DNA of 64,000 nt from a virus (taxonomy: Duplodnaviria > Caudoviricetes): the IMG/VR virus record IMGVR_UViG_3300037991_002562, positions 32,001 through 96,000 of that record; one strand, written 5' to 3'. Position numbers and translations under genes: made by a program. Below, piece after piece: positions 8,527 to 26,375 of the stretch (its first letter is position 1; every line of letters begins with the position of its first letter). The notes under the pieces were generated by a model. That model did no database searches, was not told the DNA's origin, and saw only the letters and a list, made by a program, of their open reading frames with translations.

Positions 8527-8636
8527 GGGAAATATTCCAATTCACACCCGTAAATCAGACGGGTGCGCCCACCACCAATGCAAGAATTACCCTGAAAATA
8601 GAGTTACACACGCGTATTTATAATTTTAAAAAGTTG

Positions 8637-8665
8637 TTGACGAATAACCATAATTTTCGTATAAT
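8637..8665 (+). promoter_or_regulatory. Strong T5-type early promoter TTGACG-N17-TATAAT
   Basis: A-rich UP element and downstream ATTGAG, as in T5 early promoters. Confidence 0.85.
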
Positions 8666-8694
8666 ATGTACATTATTTTAATTGAGGAACGATA

Positions 8695-9556: not shown

Positions 9557-9866
9557 TGCAAATTTAAGATTAGGCGTAGGAAACAACAAGGCGGTATTTG
9601 TTAAACCGTACAACTTAAACAGTGGATTACGAGAGATAGGATTAACCACTAAAGAAGTGTATCTGGCTATTAAGATAACAAAGCACAGTATACGTATTCT
9701 GATTGACGGGGTTTGGTTCTACCTAGAAGAAAACGAACGTAAAGACCGTGGTGCTTTAATAGTATACGAAGGTAATGCTGATTTTACAGGATTTATTGAC
9801 GAAAATAGCCTAGAGATGGCTAAGGAAATATTTGGGGTAGACCAAGAACTTGACTTAGGAGATTGA
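9549..9866 (+). CDS. Hypothetical protein
   Basis: GGAG RBS before the ATG at 9549; operon packing. Confidence 0.6.
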   Translation: MFDANLRLGVGNNKAVFVKPYNLNSGLREIGLTTKEVYLAIKITKHSIRILIDGVWFYLEENERKDRGALIVYEGNADFTGFIDENSLEMAKEIFGVDQELDLGD

Positions 9867-9867
9867 T

Positions 9868-10146
9868 ATGAAACTTGAACATAATAAGGTGTATTTAGTA
9901 CACGCTAGAAACAGCTATGTGGCCTTGTGGGATGAGCATGAAGAAGTGTTTATTGTGCCACGTTATAAGCTGGGGACTAGGGATACTATTTATGAGGTAT
10001 ACGTTGATGTTATAAAAGAACTTGATGTAGTTGTTCCAGAATGGCATGAAGCGGATGACCTTACTGAGTTCCTGCATAAATGCGCTGCGCAACACTATGA
10101 TGAGTATGACCCACGTTTAGAACCTGAGATTAAATACGGTAAATAG
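9868..10146 (+). CDS. Hypothetical protein
   Basis: AGGAG RBS; operon packing. Confidence 0.65.
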   Translation: MKLEHNKVYLVHARNSYVALWDEHEEVFIVPRYKLGTRDTIYEVYVDVIKELDVVVPEWHEADDLTEFLHKCAAQHYDEYDPRLEPEIKYGK

Positions 10147-10167
10147 TGGTGAAAATTAAAAAATCAC

Positions 10168-10196
10168 TTGCAAATTTGCTGTAAAATCTATATAAT
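10168..10196 (+). promoter_or_regulatory. Early promoter TTGCAA-N17-TATAAT
   Basis: UP element AAAATTAAAAAATC; downstream AATTGAGGG. Confidence 0.85.
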
Positions 10197-10267
10197 AGTT
10201 TACAGAAATTGAGGGAAAAACTATTTAAGGAGATTCCCATGTAATTAACGAACTAGGAGTTTATTTA

Positions 10268-10570
10268 GTGTCAGACAATAAAGATTGTAAAACGTCACAC
10301 TACGACTTTACGTATCATTTACGTAGAGACGATACACTAACTGGTCAGGTCGTCTTAGACCCGTACGCAGTTGCAAAAATTTGGAAGTTGGGTGAAAGAG
10401 ACCCATCTGGTTGCCTTTTTCATATATTGAAGACAGTCGCGAGACTTGGACAGAAAGAAGGCAATACCCTAGAACGTGAAATACAATCAATTGAACTTAC
10501 CTTACAACGTTATCGTGAGGTACGTAAGATTAATGAATTTGAAATAGATTCAGAAGAATACAACCTATAA
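10268..10570 (+). CDS. Hypothetical phage protein (possibly DUF3310-like)
   Basis: AGGAG RBS, GTG start; SHY...DPY...H.LK...R.G.K pattern (weak recall). Confidence 0.6.
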   Translation: MSDNKDCKTSHYDFTYHLRRDDTLTGQVVLDPYAVAKIWKLGERDPSGCLFHILKTVARLGQKEGNTLEREIQSIELTLQRYREVRKINEFEIDSEEYNL

Positions 10571-10830
10571 TGCAAGTGTAGCAGCCCTTACAACAATTTA
10601 GAGGGCTTACGTCTTCCGCTAGGAACTTTTGTTGTGGTTCAGAGTTGGCGTATACCTGTGTGGTGCATGTATCAGTTTAAGTTTAGCTGACAGTCTATAC
10701 ACAGAACAGAGCCTGGCGACCCTTACCGGTAGCCCGTTCTGGAAAGAGTATAGAGTGACTAACCAAAGGCAGAGAGGAACGGCATAATCGCACTCGCTGA
10801 CCGGCGACCGGAGTACCCCGCGCAAAAAAT
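10571..10830 (+). ncRNA. Putative structured non-coding RNA or leader (unclassified)
   Basis: GC-richer than its surroundings, no credible ORF, multiple nested stems with G.U pairs (see findings). Confidence 0.4.
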
Positions 10831-10857
10831 AGTAGACTTATTAGAGGAAGTATTTTA

Positions 10858-13584
10858 ATGACGTTACAAGTTCTTGAGGCTTGCGACTATAACGATAAAA
10901 ATGAAAACGGGTTCTACCGCGTATTAGCGGTAGATACCTATTTCTGTAAACGTTTTACGGGGAGCGGTGAAAAACCTGCTAATGCCCGTAAGCGATACAA
11001 GCTAGGGTCGTTTTACGACCCAGATTGCTTGCAACAACTCTTACCGGTACTTCAAAGCCTAGAAAATGACCCTCAAAAGTTGGTTATTAGGCATAAGTAT
11101 TGTAGAGCAAAACAAGGTGATAAGGTTTTTCGTCGAGTAGACGAGGTTGAACCACATCCATCGAAAATTATAGCAATAGACGTTGACGGAATCATTCGTC
11201 CAGCTCATATATCTGCTACTGACCTTATTTCGCAGGGAAATTACGTCTGTAATTTACTACATAAATGCGATCCGGAGGTCTTCCCTGACGACATGGCTTT
11301 TATTTGCCAAGCGTCTGCTAAAGCAGGTATGACTGAAAATATCCGTATTCACTTGTGGATAGAAAATGATTCTAATCTTACGCAAGGGCAACTTCGTAAT
11401 TTATTTATGCAAGTTAACTCTAGATATAAGGAAATTTTTGATACTAGCGATGAGTTAGTAGACACCGCATTGTACCATGACGTACAAGCGCATTATACGG
11501 CTGCCCCAATGTTCATTGGTGTAGACGACCCTTTTATTAGAAGCCCAAGAACCGTCTATGAATATGGAGTAGTAGCTAGAATACCTGATACTATTTCATC
11601 TTACGCAAAGACTGTGCGAGCCTCGGAAGAGGAGGTCTATGAGTACCTGCAACAAATAGATGGTGGTTCAGAAGCATCAGAAGCGTTTTGGAGAAAATGG
11701 TCTGTTGTAGAAAACTGGAATATAGCCGAATCCGGCTTGCGTACTAAAATAATTTCATTATACCATGAGGCTGTTCAGGATACCTTTAACATAGACTTAC
11801 TCGATTCTATGGTTAAAAAAGTCCTAGAGAAGAAACGTCCAGGTTCTGAGCAAGACTACGTAAACCAAGCCAAAGCCGCAGCTATAATAGAGATAAAAAA
11901 CAACTCTGTTAGAAGCATACCTAATGAGTATGAAAAACTTCCTATATCCACTATTCAAAGTGGGTCTTTACCAAAATACTTAGACATTAATAAAGAAAAA
12001 ATGCCTAGTGACGGTGTAGTATTTCTAAAGGCATCGTTGGGTACGGGTAAAACACATACTGTTGAAACTTGGTTAAGAAACGGCTATATTAAAGGAAAAT
12101 TCTTAGCACTTACTGATACATCCGCGTTAGTAGAATCAAACGCTGCCAGATTCAAAGCTGGAGACTTTCGCTCGCCTCAAGCAAGGTTAGACTTCGCGAC
12201 TGGATCACTGGATAGACTATCAGGAACTCTACATAGCTTAGTAAAGATTAAAGATTTCACTAGAGACTTTGACTTCTTGTTTATCGATGAAGCTGACTCG
12301 GTACTAAACAACCTATTGTTTGCTAAAATTATCGATGATGAGGTTAGGTTTCAAATTAGGGAAATTTTATTTGAATTACTCACTTATACTAAAGTGGTAG
12401 TTTTATCTGATGGGGACTTATCAGAAGAGACTGTAGCGCAATACATAGAGCTAGTTGAAGGTAACAGAGATTTTTACCGAGTAGATCACTATCGCCCAAA
12501 TTTAAAAAATATACCTGCTTATCGACACCACAAAGAATCCTCTATATGGGGAGCTGTTCAAGGGTCGTTAGAGACAGGTTCTAAGGCGCTGGTCGTTACC
12601 GACCAAGGGCCCGACAAGCTTAATATAATGCAGAAAACTCTATCAAGAGCCTGCCCAACCAAAAACATAAAGGTAGCCCATGCAAATTCTAAAATGGATT
12701 CAGACGTACAGCAAATCATTAACGATACAGACGTTGCACTCGAAGGCATGCGAGTGGATGCTCTCCTATGCTCCCCTAGCGTCACTAATGGAGTTGACTT
12801 TAGCTATTTCGATGCAGTTTTCGTAATAACTAAGACTTCTAACCATACTCCAAATATGCGATTTCAGGCTTTAATGCGTGAGCGTAGTCCTAGTGAAGTT
12901 CATTACTTTTTTAGTAATATCAAAGGTTACGTAACCGGATATAAGGACTCTAAGGTAGAATCGGGATGGTTTGAAAAAGCTAGACATAGTTTTGCTCTAA
13001 GACGAGAACGAGAGTTCAGGTCTTACTTAGGTACATTTAATTATTACCTAATTAGGGCAGGATGTAAAATAGAAGCCATTACAGACCCTTATGAGCCGCC
13101 AGATGAAGCCGCAGCTAAAGAAGATTACTATATCGAAAGAGCAACAGCGTTACTAAATTCTAAAGCAGAGTCATTCATACCAAGGCACAACGATGCCTAT
13201 GAGTTGAAAATGCTTTATTGTGCGTTATACGACGTAGATGAAGACAGTATCAGCTTTGACGATGCTCATGCTTTTGTTCAGTTAAAGATTGAAGAGAAGC
13301 TAGACTTCCTACACTCTATTATTCCAGTGTTCTGGGAAGAGATTAGTAAAGCATCTACTCAAAAGCTAATGGTAGCTCTTAGAGAGAAAGGTAAGCACTT
13401 TTACTTAGCGACAGGACAACAAGCTAGACCAAGCATGGCCTATGCTAAAAATGTCCTTAAAAGGTGTATGATAGAAACATTAGACGATGTAGAAGAGGTA
13501 AAAGAGTTGTATAGACGCTATTGCTTGTTCAAGGGCTACGAGAATCCACTTAACAAAGAGGAAAAAGCCTGTGAAATCGTTTGA
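10858..13584 (+). CDS. T5-like replication origin-binding protein (primase-like N-terminus plus SF2/UL9-like helicase)
   Basis: AIDVDG and RIHLW N-terminal motifs; ASLGTGKT, FIDEAD, SPSVTNGVDF, Q...RER; T5 synteny. Confidence 0.85.
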   Translation: MTLQVLEACDYNDKNENGFYRVLAVDTYFCKRFTGSGEKPANARKRYKLGSFYDPDCLQQLLPVLQSLENDPQKLVIRHKYCRAKQGDKVFRRVDEVEPHPSKIIAIDVDGIIRPAHISATDLISQGNYVCNLLHKCDPEVFPDDMAFICQASAKAGMTENIRIHLWIENDSNLTQGQLRNLFMQVNSRYKEIFDTSDELVDTALYHDVQAHYTAAPMFIGVDDPFIRSPRTVYEYGVVARIPDTISSYAKTVRASEEEVYEYLQQIDGGSEASEAFWRKWSVVENWNIAESGLRTKIISLYHEAVQDTFNIDLLDSMVKKVLEKKRPGSEQDYVNQAKAAAIIEIKNNSVRSIPNEYEKLPISTIQSGSLPKYLDINKEKMPSDGVVFLKASLGTGKTHTVETWLRNGYIKGKFLALTDTSALVESNAARFKAGDFRSPQARLDFATGSLDRLSGTLHSLVKIKDFTRDFDFLFIDEADSVLNNLLFAKIIDDEVRFQIREILFELLTYTKVVVLSDGDLSEETVAQYIELVEGNRDFYRVDHYRPNLKNIPAYRHHKESSIWGAVQGSLETGSKALVVTDQGPDKLNIMQKTLSRACPTKNIKVAHANSKMDSDVQQIINDTDVALEGMRVDALLCSPSVTNGVDFSYFDAVFVITKTSNHTPNMRFQALMRERSPSEVHYFFSNIKGYVTGYKDSKVESGWFEKARHSFALRREREFRSYLGTFNYYLIRAGCKIEAITDPYEPPDEAAAKEDYYIERATALLNSKAESFIPRHNDAYELKMLYCALYDVDEDSISFDDAHAFVQLKIEEKLDFLHSIIPVFWEEISKASTQKLMVALREKGKHFYLATGQQARPSMAYAKNVLKRCMIETLDDVEEVKELYRRYCLFKGYENPLNKEEKACEIV

Positions 13585-24258: not shown

Positions 24259-24730
24259 GAAGTACGTAGATAAATTCGAGGAAGGTAACTACATTGTTAT
24301 TCAAACTAACAGAACTAGATGGGTGCTTGACTATAAGTACAAAACCGACGACGATTATGCTATACGCAGAATGAAGTTAAAAACCGACCCACTTTGTCCG
24401 TACAAAGTGTATCCGCTATATAAGATGCACAGGACAATAGGGCAGGTAATTCGTTCTAAGCATAGAGAGTTTATAGATAGCACAGGTCGTATGATTTTAT
24501 ATAAGCCTGCTAAGTTCTATAATATTAAAATAGCCAAGATAAGAGCGTCTTGGCTAACTCAAACAGGGCATCGAGCGTATAAGGTTTTAGAAACTAATAG
24601 AACATTTGTATCTATTGACGGTCAGTACACCCATATAGCCTATGTTGAAGTAGGTAGGCGTACCTTTTTAATTGATTTAATAACTTCCAAGGAGCTTCCA
24701 GAGTTCAAAACAGTTAGAACAAAAATATGA
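24218..24730 (+). CDS. Conserved T5-like hypothetical protein upstream of D10
   Basis: GAGG RBS, synteny, FIDS.G..I.YK motif. Confidence 0.7.
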   Translation: MMFLECQFPIYEIRKYVDKFEEGNYIVIQTNRTRWVLDYKYKTDDDYAIRRMKLKTDPLCPYKVYPLYKMHRTIGQVIRSKHREFIDSTGRMILYKPAKFYNIKIAKIRASWLTQTGHRAYKVLETNRTFVSIDGQYTHIAYVEVGRRTFLIDLITSKELPEFKTVRTKI

Positions 24731-25068
24731 GAAAAAAGGCAGTAATATCTAACAAGATATATTTGAACTGTTCTAAAGGTTCGGACTTACAGCACAAGCT
24801 AGAGTCCGAACTAACTTATGAAATAAATCAACAACCTATCTCAGAGTTCCCTTTGGTTATTAGACACCTTACTAGGATATCTGATATGGTTGTTTCATTC
24901 CCCGCAGGTAGAGTAGACCTAATACCAGATGATTACGAAATTGTAGACAAACGTAGTTATGAAGAAGCTGAAATACCAGAGCCTAGTTTTACGCTAAGAG
25001 AGAATCAAGCAGAAGCTAATGATTATTTCAGCGATGGTATGTCTGGTATTATCAACTGTAAACCGGGT
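24727..25068 (+). CDS. D10: SF2 (DExH) helicase D10, exon 1
   Basis: KAVISNKIY...LRENQ Q-motif; ends INCKPG, the first half of Walker A. Confidence 0.9.
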
Positions 25069-25358
25069 TAGTGTAACCTTAGCTCGGTATAAACTCTTCT
25101 AATTGCTGGAACGTCCTTAGAGCTTTTTAACTACAGCGTAACTGGAAACGGTAAGCGCGAATGTTTGAAAATAAAAAGATTGGATAATCAGCAGCTAAGA
25201 CCCTAAAATGGGTAAAGTTCAGAGACTATCCCTATATGGGAGTAGGCTTCAACGGAAGTCGAAATGGAGAGTAATATCATTAAGATATTAAAGATATAGT
25301 CCGATCTTTATCGAAAGATAAAGAGCGTCAGGTAACGGTCTGACGCGTAACATAAATG
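25069..25358 (+). mobile_element. ORF-less group I intron (290 nt) in the D10 helicase gene
   Basis: P1: exon ACCGGGU pairs with GCUCGGU. P AAUUGCUGGAA (25101), Q AAUCAGCAG (25186), R GUUCAGAGACUA (25217), S AAGAUAUAGUCC (25291); ends CAUAAAUG. Removal restores CKPG|WGKS in frame. Confidence 0.93.
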
Positions 25359-26375
25359 TGGGGTAAGTCCATATGTGCTATGGGCTTAATAGCTAAGTAC
25401 CAATTAAAGACCTTAATAGTAACTACTACCACAGTTATACGTGATATGTGGGTTAAGGAAATAAAACAGCACTTTGGTATAGAGCCTTGTGTTATTGGAG
25501 GTGGGAAGGTTATAAATCCCGAATCTCCAATAGCCGTAGGTAATATACAAACAGTAGAGAAGATTATCCAAAAGGAAAGCGGTACGTATGGAATGCTGAT
25601 AATCGACGAGTGCCACCATTGTTCTGCCAATACATTTACCAAAGTTCTGAACGTATCTAGAGCATCTATAAAAATAGGTCTTAGTGGTACATTGACCAGA
25701 CGAGACGGTAAACACGTACTGTTTAACGACTTCTTTGGTTCCAAGAGGTTTGTTGGTAAAGATGAAAACCGTATGAAGCCTACTGTGTGGGTTTATAGGT
25801 CAGCAGTACAAATTCCATCCAACTCTATGATTCCGTGGGCACGCCGCGCCAACGCAGTTATGGAAGACCCACGACATTTAAGTGATGTTATTTTTATAAC
25901 TAAAATATTGGAGCAGCTAGGGCACAGAGTTTTGGTGGTTGCAGATAGGGTAGAGTTTTTAGAAAAAGCTCACAAGGCATTACCTTATAGCTTAATAATA
26001 GCTAAGAACATGGCCGCTACCGCCGAAGAGCGGGAGATAGTCATGAATGCTGTTAAACAAGGAAAAGCATTATCATTGTGTGCAACACAATCTATTTTCT
26101 CCGAAGGTGTGTCACTTAACGAACTATCTGCATTAGTTGCAGGGTCTTTAATCAGCTCTGAAGAGTTACTTGAGCAGCTTATTGGTAGGGTTCAAAGACC
26201 TGCTAATAATAAGCTACCTCCTATAGTAGTAGATATAAGACTAGAGGGTGAAACAGCTAGAAGACAGTTCTATAACAGGAAAGCTCTGTATACAAGAGAG
26301 GGCTGGGAAGTTAAAGAAATAAGCAGGGCGGCAATGCTGGACTTGGTGAAACAACATGAGCAAACAATTAGCTAG
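25359..26375 (+). CDS. D10: SF2 helicase D10, exon 2 (spliced product about 452 aa)
   Basis: WGKS, IIDECHH, GLSGT..R.DG, SEGVS, QLIGRVQR. Confidence 0.9.
   Translation, partial: WGKSICAMGLIAKYQLKTLIVTTTTVIRDMWVKEIKQHFGIEPCVIGGGKVINPESPIAVGNIQTVEKIIQKESGTYGMLIIDECHHCSANTFTKVLNVSRASIKIGLSGTLTRRDGKHVLFNDFFGSKRFVGKDENRMKPTVWVYRSAVQIPSNSMIPWARRANAVMEDPRHLSDVIFITKILEQLGHRVLVVADRVEFLEKAHKALPYSLIIAKNMAATAEEREIVMNAVKQGKALSLCATQSIFSEGVSLNELSALVAGSLISSEELLEQLIGRVQRPANNKLPPIVVDIRLEGETARRQFYNRKALYTREGWEVKEISRAAMLDLVKQHEQTIS

What the first reader, a model, noticed from the sequence alone, without database searches (positions are those of the whole stretch)
10571..10857. Unclassified GC-rich structured non-coding segment directly upstream of the origin-binding helicase gene
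Seen: about 290 nt without a credible ORF in an otherwise tightly packed operon. By-eye stems: AGCCCU/AGGGCU hairpin; a long interrupted rod UUUUGUU/GGCAGAG, UGGUU/AACCA, AGUU/GACU, UAUAC/GUAUA enclosing CUGUGU/ACACAG with UCAGUU/AGCUGA and AGAAC/GUUCU with CUGG/CCGG; then UCGCU/GGCGA. The many G.U pairs favour RNA structure on the + strand. It does not resemble tRNA, tmRNA, RNase P, SRP or an intron core. Inference: an undescribed phage ncRNA or a cis-regulatory leader controlling the replication initiator, alternatively an origin/primer element.
Basis: partly seen in the sequence, partly recalled or inferred. Interest (0 to 1): 0.7.

Follow-up and report, generated by a model that had tools for sequence, protein, structure and literature searches.

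The report
Non-coding leader before phage replication helicase
A 287-base stretch with no gene sits just ahead of the replication-initiator helicase gene of a marine T5-like phage; it is well conserved and is probably an untranslated leader of that gene's message, but neither its fold nor its role could be proven.

Summary
The gap is real. Window 10571-10857 lies between a conserved 100-aa gene (10268-10570) and the 908-aa D2-type origin-binding helicase gene (10858-13584) of a complete 108,868-bp T5-like marine phage. It is non-coding by codon usage and by protein searches. Its GC content is 47%, against 40% for the genome.

It has no Rfam match. Its only copies are in near-identical strains, so covariation could not be tested. 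That test has little power, because a covariation-proven RNA in relatives scores only z -1.24.

Points in favour of function:
- 1 variable site in 287 nt, against 20 in 415 third-codon positions of the flanks (p 4e-4; p 0.056 against the nearer gene alone).
- All seven cultured T5-like phages examined have 350 to over 1,000 nt without a credible gene directly upstream of D2.
- A sister clade carries a promoter-driven leader of about 400 nt with strong covariation. The window's element does not match it.

Most likely this is a constrained cis-acting leader of the D2 message. An origin site or an inert remnant remain open. Interest is modest.

The parts
10168..10196 (+). Sigma70-like promoter (TTGCAA, 17 nt, TATAAT) after an A-tract. 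It is the likely start of the transcript that carries the 100-aa gene, the element and D2.
   Evidence: It is the only promoter-like site found in 9800-11200 (sequence). It has the same style as the promoters that drive the leader RNA in relatives.
10268..10570 (+). Conserved 100-aa gene of unknown function that precedes the element.
   Evidence: Weak PHROG matches. The exact protein occurs on 210 contigs. It has 16 homologues, 47-85% identical in the alignment. Its three variable sites are two third-codon positions and one first position that gives AGA to CGA, which is synonymous. Its codon score is that of a coding region.
10571..10857 (+). The element: a 287-nt non-coding spacer that serves as leader of the D2 gene.
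10584..10606 (+). Hairpin AGCCCU(11-nt loop)AGGGCU, 14 nt after the stop codon. No U-run follows it.
   Evidence: It is in the MFE fold. z is -3.16 for 10580-10612 on + and -1.55 on -. The terminator scan does not call it.
10625..10780 (+).
10690..10760 (+). The most stable local hairpin: a lower stem, a 6x6 internal loop and a bulged upper stem.
   Evidence: -26.7 kcal/mol, z -5.35 against shuffles. It ranks 108 of 21,758 windows genome-wide. The only natural variant, G10736A in L019, breaks the predicted C10712-G10736 pair.
10843..10860 (+). Shine-Dalgarno-like AGAGGAAG and the ATG of D2.
   Evidence: Sequence. D2 relatives align from residue M1. Long-range pairing of the SD with CUUCC at 10613-10617 is no better than in shuffles, p 0.07.
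10858..13584 (+). D2-type SF2 helicase, annotated as a replication origin binding protein.
   Evidence: phrog_3712 at E 7e-226. It is 37% identical to the homologues in T5-like phages.

Best explanation
The 287 nt are a functional, non-coding, cis-acting leader inside the early replication operon. I infer that transcription starts at the sigma70-like promoter at 10168-10196, runs through the 100-aa gene and the spacer, and continues into D2. On this reading the spacer RNA folds into a few hairpins: one at 10584-10606, and a rod at 10625-10780 with its core hairpin at 10690-10760. These would set how much D2 is made, by controlling processing, stability or translational coupling of the D2 part of the message.

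Shown: the stretch is non-coding; it is placed between two real genes without its own promoter or terminator; it varies little among strains; and gene-free regions upstream of D2 occur across the phage family.

Inferred: that the active form is RNA, that the predicted hairpins exist, and that the target is D2 expression.
For: - Non-coding status.
- No promoter or terminator lies inside the stretch. The only promoter-like site lies upstream of the 100-aa gene.
- Across seven variant genomes (four loci, plus contigs from three of the four runs laid; the fourth run's contig was identical) there is 1 variable site in 287 nt. The flanks have 20 in 415 third-codon positions. Fisher p is 3.9e-4.
- GC is 47%, against 26% in the adjacent promoter gap. 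Idle spacers in this genome are AT-rich.
- The + strand folds better than the - strand in every sub-interval tested.
- Context: a gene-free 350 to over 1,000 nt lies directly upstream of D2 in 7 of 7 GenBank T5-like phages examined. They are DT571/2 (715 nt), My1 (590), phiKp_27 (598), AAS21 (352), Noelle (634), JSF12 (1041 or more) and D432 (about 730 nt holding only 29-55-aa calls).
- In DT571/2 and My1 this region starts with a terminator and a strong promoter.
- The four enterobacterial phages share conserved blocks in this region.
- Sister-clade phages (D2 about 48% identical) carry a promoter-driven leader of 360-420 nt that is a structured RNA. Of 37 pairs, 24 have compensatory changes. 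90% of cells are paired, against 36-46% in slid controls, and 0 of 500 shuffles do as well.
- The weak whole-region z-score is not informative. That proven RNA scores only z -1.24.
Against: - Fold statistics are weak: whole region z -0.96; the best hairpin is only in the top 0.5% of genome windows, and with about 58 windows in the element that is expected by chance roughly one time in four.
- The one natural variant (G10736A) breaks a predicted G-C pair.
- There are no homologues outside near-identical strains, so there is no covariation.
- The element matches neither the sister-clade leader (nhmmer gives no hit; models R1 and R2 give at most 2.0 bits inside it) nor the enterobacterial leader. 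Shared ancestry or shared mechanism is therefore unproven.
- Low variation may reflect a recent recombination block. The whole interval 10152-10907 is low in diversity, and against the 100-aa gene alone p is 0.056.
- SD sequestration by an upstream anti-SD is not better than chance.
- Transcription was not shown. RNA-library contigs span the region in multi-kb pieces that may be DNA.
Confidence: 0.4

Rival explanations
1. It is an inert spacer or remnant. It could be what is left of an ancestral long D2 leader, or of a lost gene, after the 100-aa gene came to lie between promoter and D2. Its apparent conservation would then be a by-product of a recently exchanged DNA block.
For: - The region upstream of 10147 is mosaic among strains, and 10152-10907 is one low-diversity block.
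- Fold statistics are near chance.
- The single variant breaks a predicted pair.
- Leaders of different clades share no detectable sequence, so turnover is fast.
Against: - 1 of 287 sites varies, against 20 of 415 synonymous-type sites in the flanks.
- GC is far above that of the idle spacer next door.
- No trace of a decayed gene was found in six-frame and protein searches.
- A tightly packed lytic phage rarely keeps 287 idle bases (inference).
Confidence: 0.25
2. It is a DNA-level site for replication: an origin, or a loading or binding region for the D2 helicase encoded next to it. Transcription from the upstream promoter might help to open it or prime it.
For: - It lies next to the gene of the putative initiator. 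D2 has a UL9/RepA-like helicase core and an HTH motif, and is needed for T5 DNA synthesis (passages of PMC3632103).
- A gene-free region upstream of D2 is family-wide.
- It has a GC-rich body followed by an AT-rich tail at about 10821-10857.
- The T5 origin has not been mapped at sequence level, going by one passage of PMC10055335, which reports multiple origins in old work and a strand bias suggesting replication from one end.
Against: - There are no iterons beyond chance. The direct repeats are two-copy families of 9-18 nt. The GGCGACC pair is within my own rough estimate of chance, which was not run through a tool.
- The strand asymmetry of folding favours RNA.
- In the sister clade the equivalent region evolves by compensatory changes, which points to RNA rather than protein-binding DNA.
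- The recombitron data favour an origin at a genome end in T5.
Confidence: 0.2
3. It is a stable trans-acting small RNA that is cut out of the operon transcript.
For: It has a compact hairpin-rich core and sequence constraint. Phages do make processed stable RNAs (general knowledge, recalled).
Against: It has no promoter or terminator of its own. It has no Rfam family. There is no evidence of a discrete RNA species, because contigs cannot show ends.
Confidence: 0.1
4. It encodes a small protein, the 52-aa TTG-start ORF at 10629-10787.
For: It has an N-terminal hydrophobic stretch, and an AGGAA lies 3 nt upstream of the TTG. The variant at 10736 falls on its third codon position.
Against: - Its codon score is -0.08, below the 5th percentile of coding chunks, which is 0.137.
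- It is not called on any contig of a 15-billion-protein collection.
- It has 0 hits among 1.84 billion representatives and only tblastn hits at E 3 or worse.
Confidence: 0.03

Closest known systems
Gene-free region upstream of the D2 gene in cultured T5-like phages (Demerecviridae: DT571/2, My1, phiKp_27, AAS21, Noelle, D432, JSF12)
   Same: It occupies the same place, directly 5' of the D2-type helicase gene on the same strand, and holds no credible gene. In DT571/2 and My1 it lies downstream of a strong early-type promoter that is followed by ATTGAGAG. The window's promoter at 10168-10196 is followed by AAATTGAGGG.
   Different: Those regions are 350 to over 1,000 nt long, and in DT571/2 and My1 they run straight from promoter to D2. 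In the window a 100-aa gene sits between promoter and spacer, and the spacer is only 287 nt. A profile of the four enterobacterial leaders finds nothing in the window. The only likeness is short words: ACAGAACAG, and CTTACCGG against CTTAGCGG. I estimate that is near chance. As far as I could see, none of these regions has a described function. Most records leave them unannotated, and my paper searches found nothing on them.
Promoter-driven structured leader RNA of the sister clade
   Same: It is a non-coding stretch in the same operon just upstream of D2, on the same strand, in marine T5-like phages. It has no Rfam match.
   Different: It is 360-420 nt long, starts at its own strong promoter, and is followed by a 110-132-aa gene that abuts D2. 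It has GNRA-capped hairpins and strong covariation. The window's element has no promoter and no detectable match: nhmmer finds none, and models R1 and R2 give at most 2.0 bits inside it.
Intercistronic RNase III processing hairpins of phage T7 early mRNA (recalled, not tested)
   Same: It is an interrupted hairpin of roughly two helical turns with a central internal loop, sitting between cistrons of an early polycistronic message.
   Different: No cleavage data exist, and no sequence family could be tested. The host and its RNases are unknown.
Primer or R-loop origins that depend on a folded transcript (ColE1 RNA II; T4 ori(uvsY) and ori(34)) (recalled, not tested)
   Same: A promoter lies a few hundred bases upstream of a region next to replication genes, and the transcript could fold.
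   Different: There is no evidence of an R-loop, of RNase H processing, or of origin activity here.

Membership tests
Any Rfam 15 family | Covariance-model match at or near the gathering score | tested here: not met
   No match inside 10571-10857, even at E<=10 with lax filters. The same library finds a group I intron at 25039-25323 at 91.1 bits, so the scan does work on this genome.
tRNA / tmRNA | Cloverleaf or tmRNA architecture | tested here: not met
   ARAGORN finds no gene in the window. It finds 22 tRNAs elsewhere in the genome.
   nhmmer with the 6-sequence profile, filters off, finds no hit in 10540-10880 even at E<=1000. In the whole genome only the promoter part resembles 8628-8677.
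   For R2 with filters off, the best hit anywhere in 10100-11100 is 1.3 bits. Inside the element there is only -0.6 bits, on the - strand. R1 gives only 2.0 bits, on the - strand, at 10812-10862. True members score 92-145 bits, and a new divergent member, L008, scores 27 bits.
   There is no promoter-like site within 10571-10857. The nearest is 10168-10196, upstream of the 100-aa gene.
Enterobacterial T5-like D2 leader | Conserved blocks ATACRGAACRGTYMGGCYGC and CTTAGCGG, and profile similarity | tested here: not met
   The profile of the four leaders gives no hit in the window's promoter-to-D2 stretch at E<=100. Only short word matches are present.
Intrinsic terminator or attenuator | GC-rich stem followed by a U-run on the + strand | tested here: not met
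   There is no + strand terminator-like site in 9800-11200. The 10584-10606 hairpin is followed by UACGUCUUCC.
Replication origin of the iteron type | Several repeated initiator-binding sites beside an AT-rich unwinding stretch, next to the initiator gene | tested here: inconclusive
   Adjacency to the initiator gene is met. An AT-rich tail at about 10821-10857 is present. The repeats found are two-copy families of 9-18 nt, which is no more than such a scan often gives by chance. Binding and origin activity cannot be tested with these tools.
RNase III-type processing hairpin | Cleavage by host RNase III at an interrupted hairpin of about 20 bp | not testable with these tools
   The shape of the 10690-10760 hairpin is compatible. 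The criterion itself is recalled, not tested.
Protein-coding gene or decayed gene | Coding-type codon usage, or homologues at protein level | tested here: not met
   Codon scores are non-coding in all six frames. No exact entries exist. No homologues were found.

The most novel reading that the evidence does not exclude
T5-like phages as a family keep a fast-evolving but functional non-coding RNA domain in front of the D2 initiator-helicase gene. It would be a replication-control leader or a transcript-dependent origin. The window's 287 nt would be its minimal form, and the sister clade's covarying leader of about 400 nt, with GNRA-capped hairpins, would be its elaborate form. Neither form has been described, and neither is in Rfam.
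Probability: 0.22. Interest if true: 0.65.

Novelty: new member of a known kind. Interest (0 to 1): 0.32.

Why it matters
How T5-like phages start and time DNA replication is poorly known. Their origin has not been mapped at sequence level, and D2 is only inferred to be the initiator (PMC3632103 passages; PMC10055335 passage).

A conserved gene-free region in front of D2 in every examined member of the family is an obvious candidate for the missing cis-acting control element or origin. In one clade it is a proven structured RNA.

The window's element alone adds one more poorly resolved instance. Its value is mainly that it pointed to this family-wide feature, which could be tested directly in T5 and E. 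coli.

Tried and rejected
**Known RNA classes**
- Rfam at gathering score on the whole window, and at E<=10 on 10450-10950, found nothing in the element.
- ARAGORN found nothing in the window.

**DNA similarity**
- No match to GenBank phages.
- No match in five related virus records. The best hits were 14-18-nt words at E 0.05-0.36.
- No second copy in its own genome.

**Decayed gene or small protein**
- tblastx against all loci held, best E 0.95.
- tblastn of the 68-aa and 52-aa ORFs, best E 2 and 3.
- Word-index search of the 68-aa ORF found none.
- Full HMMER search of the 52-aa ORF over 1.84 billion representatives gave 0 hits.

**Intermediate relatives for covariation**
- D2 homologues of 56-79% identity (P0002-P0010) and homologues of the 100-aa protein of 63-85% identity (P0072-P0082) exist.
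- Their contigs could not be fetched. They are not in IMG/VR. Two genome-collection scans found nothing.

**Other contexts of the 100-aa gene**
- Loci L145-L150 carry it as the C-terminal part of 144-200-aa proteins with no D2 nearby, so they say nothing about the element.

**Expression**
- Three runs labelled metatranscriptomic hold contigs of 3.7-10 kb that cover 9800-11800 in one piece. These may be DNA, and contigs show no ends or levels, so this is not evidence of transcription.

**Anti-SD pairing**
- Pairing of 10613-10622 with the D2 SD is no better than in shuffles: p 0.07 for the SD alone and 0.55 for the whole initiation region.

**A shared pattern for the sister-clade RNA**

**Literature**
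- Three full-text searches found nothing on a non-coding RNA or mapped origin upstream of T5 D2.
- The 1976 electron-microscopy paper on T5 origins is not held. My recollection that a primary origin lies near the middle of the genome is therefore unverified and is not used as evidence.

**Tools not open**
- Earlier findings of this scan were not open to the session.

Full report
**Where we are.** The window is bases 32001-96000 of a complete 108,868-bp virus record with direct terminal repeats. The genome is 40.0% GC and carries 22 tRNA genes. The gene after the finding encodes a 908-aa protein that matches phrog_3712 'replication origin binding' at E 7e-226. It is about 37% identical to the D2-type helicase of T5-like phages of Escherichia, Salmonella, Klebsiella and Vibrio. 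This is a marine T5-like (Demerecviridae-type) phage. Runs labelled 'marine metagenome' hold near-identical copies.

**The observation.** The finding's coordinates are exact. 10571-10857 runs from the base after the stop codon of a 100-aa ORF (10268-10570) to the base before the ATG of D2.

The 100-aa ORF is a real gene.
- The exact protein is on 210 contigs.
- It has 16 homologues, 47-85% identical in the alignment, and all end at the same place.
- Its three variable sites among strains are all of the synonymous kind (codon read).

The 287 nt are non-coding.
- All six frames score -0.43 to +0.03 per codon on a coding-versus-off-frame codon score trained on this phage's 31 ORFs of 250 aa or more. 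The neighbouring small ORFs score 0.14-0.47, and the 5th percentile of 52-codon coding chunks is 0.137.
- The 52-aa (+) and 68-aa (-) ORFs are in no contig's gene calls.
- Neither has a homologue.
- tblastx against all related loci finds nothing better than E 0.95.

GC is 47%, peaking at 51.5% over 10625-10824. The 121-nt gap just upstream (10147-10267) holds a promoter and is 26% GC.

The AGCCCU/AGGGCU hairpin is in the MFE of the whole region. The rod, with the UUUUGUU/GGCAGAG and UGGUU/AACCA outer stems, the UCAGUU/AGCUGA hairpin and the UAUAC/GUAUA stem, is the MFE of 10625-10780.

The statistics are weak.
- Whole region: z -0.96 on +, with 33 of 200 shuffles as good, and +0.51 on -.
- Rod: z -2.18.
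- First hairpin: z -3.16.
- Inner hairpin 10690-10760: z -5.35 on + and -1.44 on -. I chose those borders after seeing the fold.

To correct for that choice I folded 21,758 windows of 71 nt over both strands of the genome and regressed energy on composition. This hairpin ranks 108th, with z -3.30. At least 30 separate places rank higher. One of them is inside the D2 coding region, at 10910.

About 58 such windows fit in the element. One top-0.5% window is therefore expected by chance about one time in four.

The criterion has little power, however. The sister-clade leader described below is proven by covariation, yet its whole-sequence z is only -1.24.

**Homologues and covariation.** The element has no Rfam match, while Rfam does find the group I intron at 25039-25323 in the same window. 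It matches no GenBank phage DNA. It has no second copy in its genome.

Copies were found only in near-identical phages. L002, L018 and L020 are 100% identical to it, and L019 differs by one base. Phages whose D2 is about 48% identical, or 33-36% identical, have no similar sequence in the loci or whole records searched. Relatives at 56-79% D2 identity exist as proteins, and they also carry the 100-aa gene. Their DNA could not be reached with the caps and tools available. No covariation test was therefore possible. That is the main gap in this report.

**Variation among strains.** The four loci, together with contigs from three of the four public runs laid (the fourth was identical), differ from the window by 3-7% over neighbouring kilobases.

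| Interval | Variable sites |
|---|---|
| 100-aa gene | 3 of 303 |
| Element | 1 of 287 |
| First 943 nt of D2 | 23, of which 17 at third codon positions |
| Next 700 nt of D2 | 48 |

These counts come from the union of variable sites in 10100-12500.

The element's 1 of 287 compares with 20 of 415 third-codon positions in the two flanks, Fisher p 3.9e-4. Against the 100-aa gene alone p is 0.056. This is the best positive evidence that the sequence is under constraint.

There are three caveats.
- The strains are few and not independent.
- The whole interval 10152-10907 is a low-diversity block next to a mosaic break at 10147-10151, so a recent exchange could contribute.
- The one variant, G10736A in L019, turns the predicted C10712-G10736 pair into C-A and costs about 3.5 kcal/mol.

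**Transcription context.** In 9800-11200 the scan finds one promoter-like site, TTGCAA-17-TATAAT at 10168-10196, and no + strand terminator. That promoter follows an A-tract and is followed by AAATTGAGGG. Next come a start-stop mini-ORF with its own AAGGAG (ATG TAA at 10239-10244) and then the GTG of the 100-aa gene.

The simplest reading is one transcript: promoter, 100-aa gene, 287-nt spacer, D2. This is inferred, not shown. Three runs labelled metatranscriptomic contain multi-kb contigs across the region, but these can be DNA and contigs show no ends.

**The family picture.** Following D2 into other phages gave the most informative result. Directly upstream of the D2 gene, seven of the seven GenBank T5-like phages I opened have a long stretch without a credible gene.

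| Phage | Stretch upstream of D2 |
|---|---|
| DT571/2 | 715 nt |
| My1 | 590 nt |
| phiKp_27 | 598 nt |
| AAS21 | 352 nt beyond a 39-aa call |
| Noelle | 634 nt |
| JSF12 | at least 1,041 nt, 50% GC |
| D432 | about 730 nt holding only 29-55-aa calls |

- The DT571/2 stretch matches 540 records. At least 80% of it is covered in 259 of them. In the 40 rows shown it is mostly unannotated.
- In DT571/2 and My1 the stretch begins with a terminator and a strong promoter followed by ATTGAGAG.
- The four enterobacterial leaders share conserved blocks (ATACRGAACRGTYMGGCYGC and CTTAGCGG) across subfamilies.
- The DT571/2 leader folds with z -2.59, and 0 of 100 shuffles fold as well.
- None of these regions has an Rfam match.

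The metagenomic clades vary. L015 has a 239-nt gap. L013 has a 368-nt AT-rich divergent gap. L016 and L025 have none.

**The sister-clade RNA.** In the clade with D2 about 48% identical, a 110-132-aa gene abuts D2. One step further upstream lies a gap of about 450 nt. That gap consists of a strong promoter (A-tract, TTGACA, 17 nt, TATAAT-like) and a non-coding leader of 360-420 nt that runs to the ribosome-binding site of the small gene.

The leader is a structured RNA.
- Six distinct sequences match at nhmmer E 1e-46 to 1e-97.
- RNAalifold predicts 43 pairs, 25 of them with compensatory changes.
- On the central 153-nt domain, 24 of 37 pairs change on both sides. 90.0% of cells are paired, against 36-46% when partners are slid by 1-3 columns. 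0 of 500 shuffles reach any of the five measures.
- Several hairpins keep GNRA loops while their stems change.
- A model of this domain finds a seventh, divergent member in L008 at 27.1 bits, E 4.7e-4.
- It has no Rfam match.

**Is the window's element one of these?** It is not, by any test I could run.
- The sister-clade sequence profile gives no hit in 10540-10880 even at E<=1000.
- In the whole genome that profile matches only a promoter at 8628-8677.
- The structure models give at most 2.0 bits inside the element, on the wrong strand.
- Model R2 finds nothing anywhere in the window, in the T5-like locus, or in the loci of the more distant clades.
- The enterobacterial leader profile finds nothing in the window.
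- Short word likenesses exist: ACAGAACAG as in phiKp_27, CTTACCGG against CTTAGCGG, and GGCGACCC as in L007. I estimate they are near what chance gives, and I do not rely on them.

The element therefore shares place and non-coding nature with the other D2 leaders, but not detectable ancestry.

**Mechanism.** My preferred reading (0.4) is a cis-acting untranslated leader of the D2 message under sequence constraint. Its hairpins would set D2 output through processing, stability or re-initiation after the 100-aa gene.

The interrupted 71-nt hairpin has the general shape of phage intercistronic RNase III sites. That comparison is recalled and not tested. Sequestration of the D2 Shine-Dalgarno by an upstream CUUCC is not better than chance.

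The rivals are these.
- An inert remnant inside a recently exchanged block (0.25).
- A DNA-level origin or D2-loading site (0.2). It is attractive because D2 is the presumed initiator (PMC3632103 passages), and one passage I read calls T5 replication 'less well studied' and reports no mapped origin (PMC10055335). Against it, there are no iterons beyond chance and the sister-clade counterpart evolves as RNA.
- A processed trans-acting RNA (0.1).
- A 52-aa protein (0.03).

**Verdict.** The gap is real, non-coding and probably constrained. Its predicted structure is plausible but statistically unproven, and it belongs to no known or newly defined RNA family. As an isolated finding it is of modest interest.

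The wider pattern it led to deserves follow-up. Every examined T5-like phage has a gene-free region in front of D2, and one clade has a covariation-proven RNA there that is not in Rfam.

Noticed in passing
L005 2185-2630; L007 802-1276; L022 about 1790-2260; L011 1813-2268; L003 about 1180-1670; L009 about 2240-2670; L008 184-333: Marine T5-like phages of a sister clade (D2 about 48% identical) carry a strong sigma70 promoter followed by a non-coding leader of 360-420 nt, ahead of a small gene and D2. It is a structured RNA: 24 of 37 central pairs show compensatory changes, 90% of cells are paired against 36-46% in slid controls, and GNRA-capped hairpins covary. It has no Rfam 15 match. It is a candidate new cis-regulatory or replication-linked RNA family.
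   Followed up: partly
L028 2736-3449 (DT571/2); L152 1184-1773 (My1); L153 1164-1761 (phiKp_27); L154 1274-1776 (AAS21); L155 927-1560 (Noelle); L156 749-1476 (D432); L151 1-1041 (JSF12): Seven of the seven cultured T5-like phages examined have 350 to over 1,000 nt without a credible gene directly upstream of the D2 helicase gene. The four enterobacterial ones share the blocks ATACRGAACRGTYMGGCYGC and CTTAGCGG, which I judged by eye could pair with each other. The JSF12 region is 50% GC over about 1 kb. Records mostly leave the region unannotated.
   Followed up: partly
window 25039-25323: A group I intron (Rfam RF00028, 91.1 bits) lies between a 114-aa ORF (24727-25071) and a 339-aa ORF (25356-26375). 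The 339-aa ORF matches a DNA helicase PHROG only from profile position 302 onward, so the intron probably splits a helicase gene.
   Followed up: partly
window 10239-10244: A start-stop mini-ORF (ATG TAA) with its own AAGGAG lies in the short leader between the promoter at 10168-10196 and the GTG of the 100-aa gene.
   Followed up: no
window 10903-10944: An 18-nt inverted repeat lies inside the 5' part of the D2 coding region. The 71-nt window starting at 10910 ranks among the 30 most stable local folds of the genome, above the element's own hairpin.
   Followed up: no
window 10147-10151 and upstream: A mosaic breakpoint among otherwise 93-98% identical strains falls at the start of the promoter gap. 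Upstream gene content differs between L018, L019, L020 and the window.
   Followed up: partly
L013 204-501 (- strand): A second group I intron (RF00028, 95.3 bits) lies in a distant T5-like metagenomic phage near its D2 locus.
   Followed up: no
L145-L150, match at 2501-2734: The 100-aa protein's conserved core (DPY..V...W, LFH.LKT) also occurs as the C-terminal part of 144-200-aa proteins in unrelated viral contigs with no D2 nearby.
   Followed up: no
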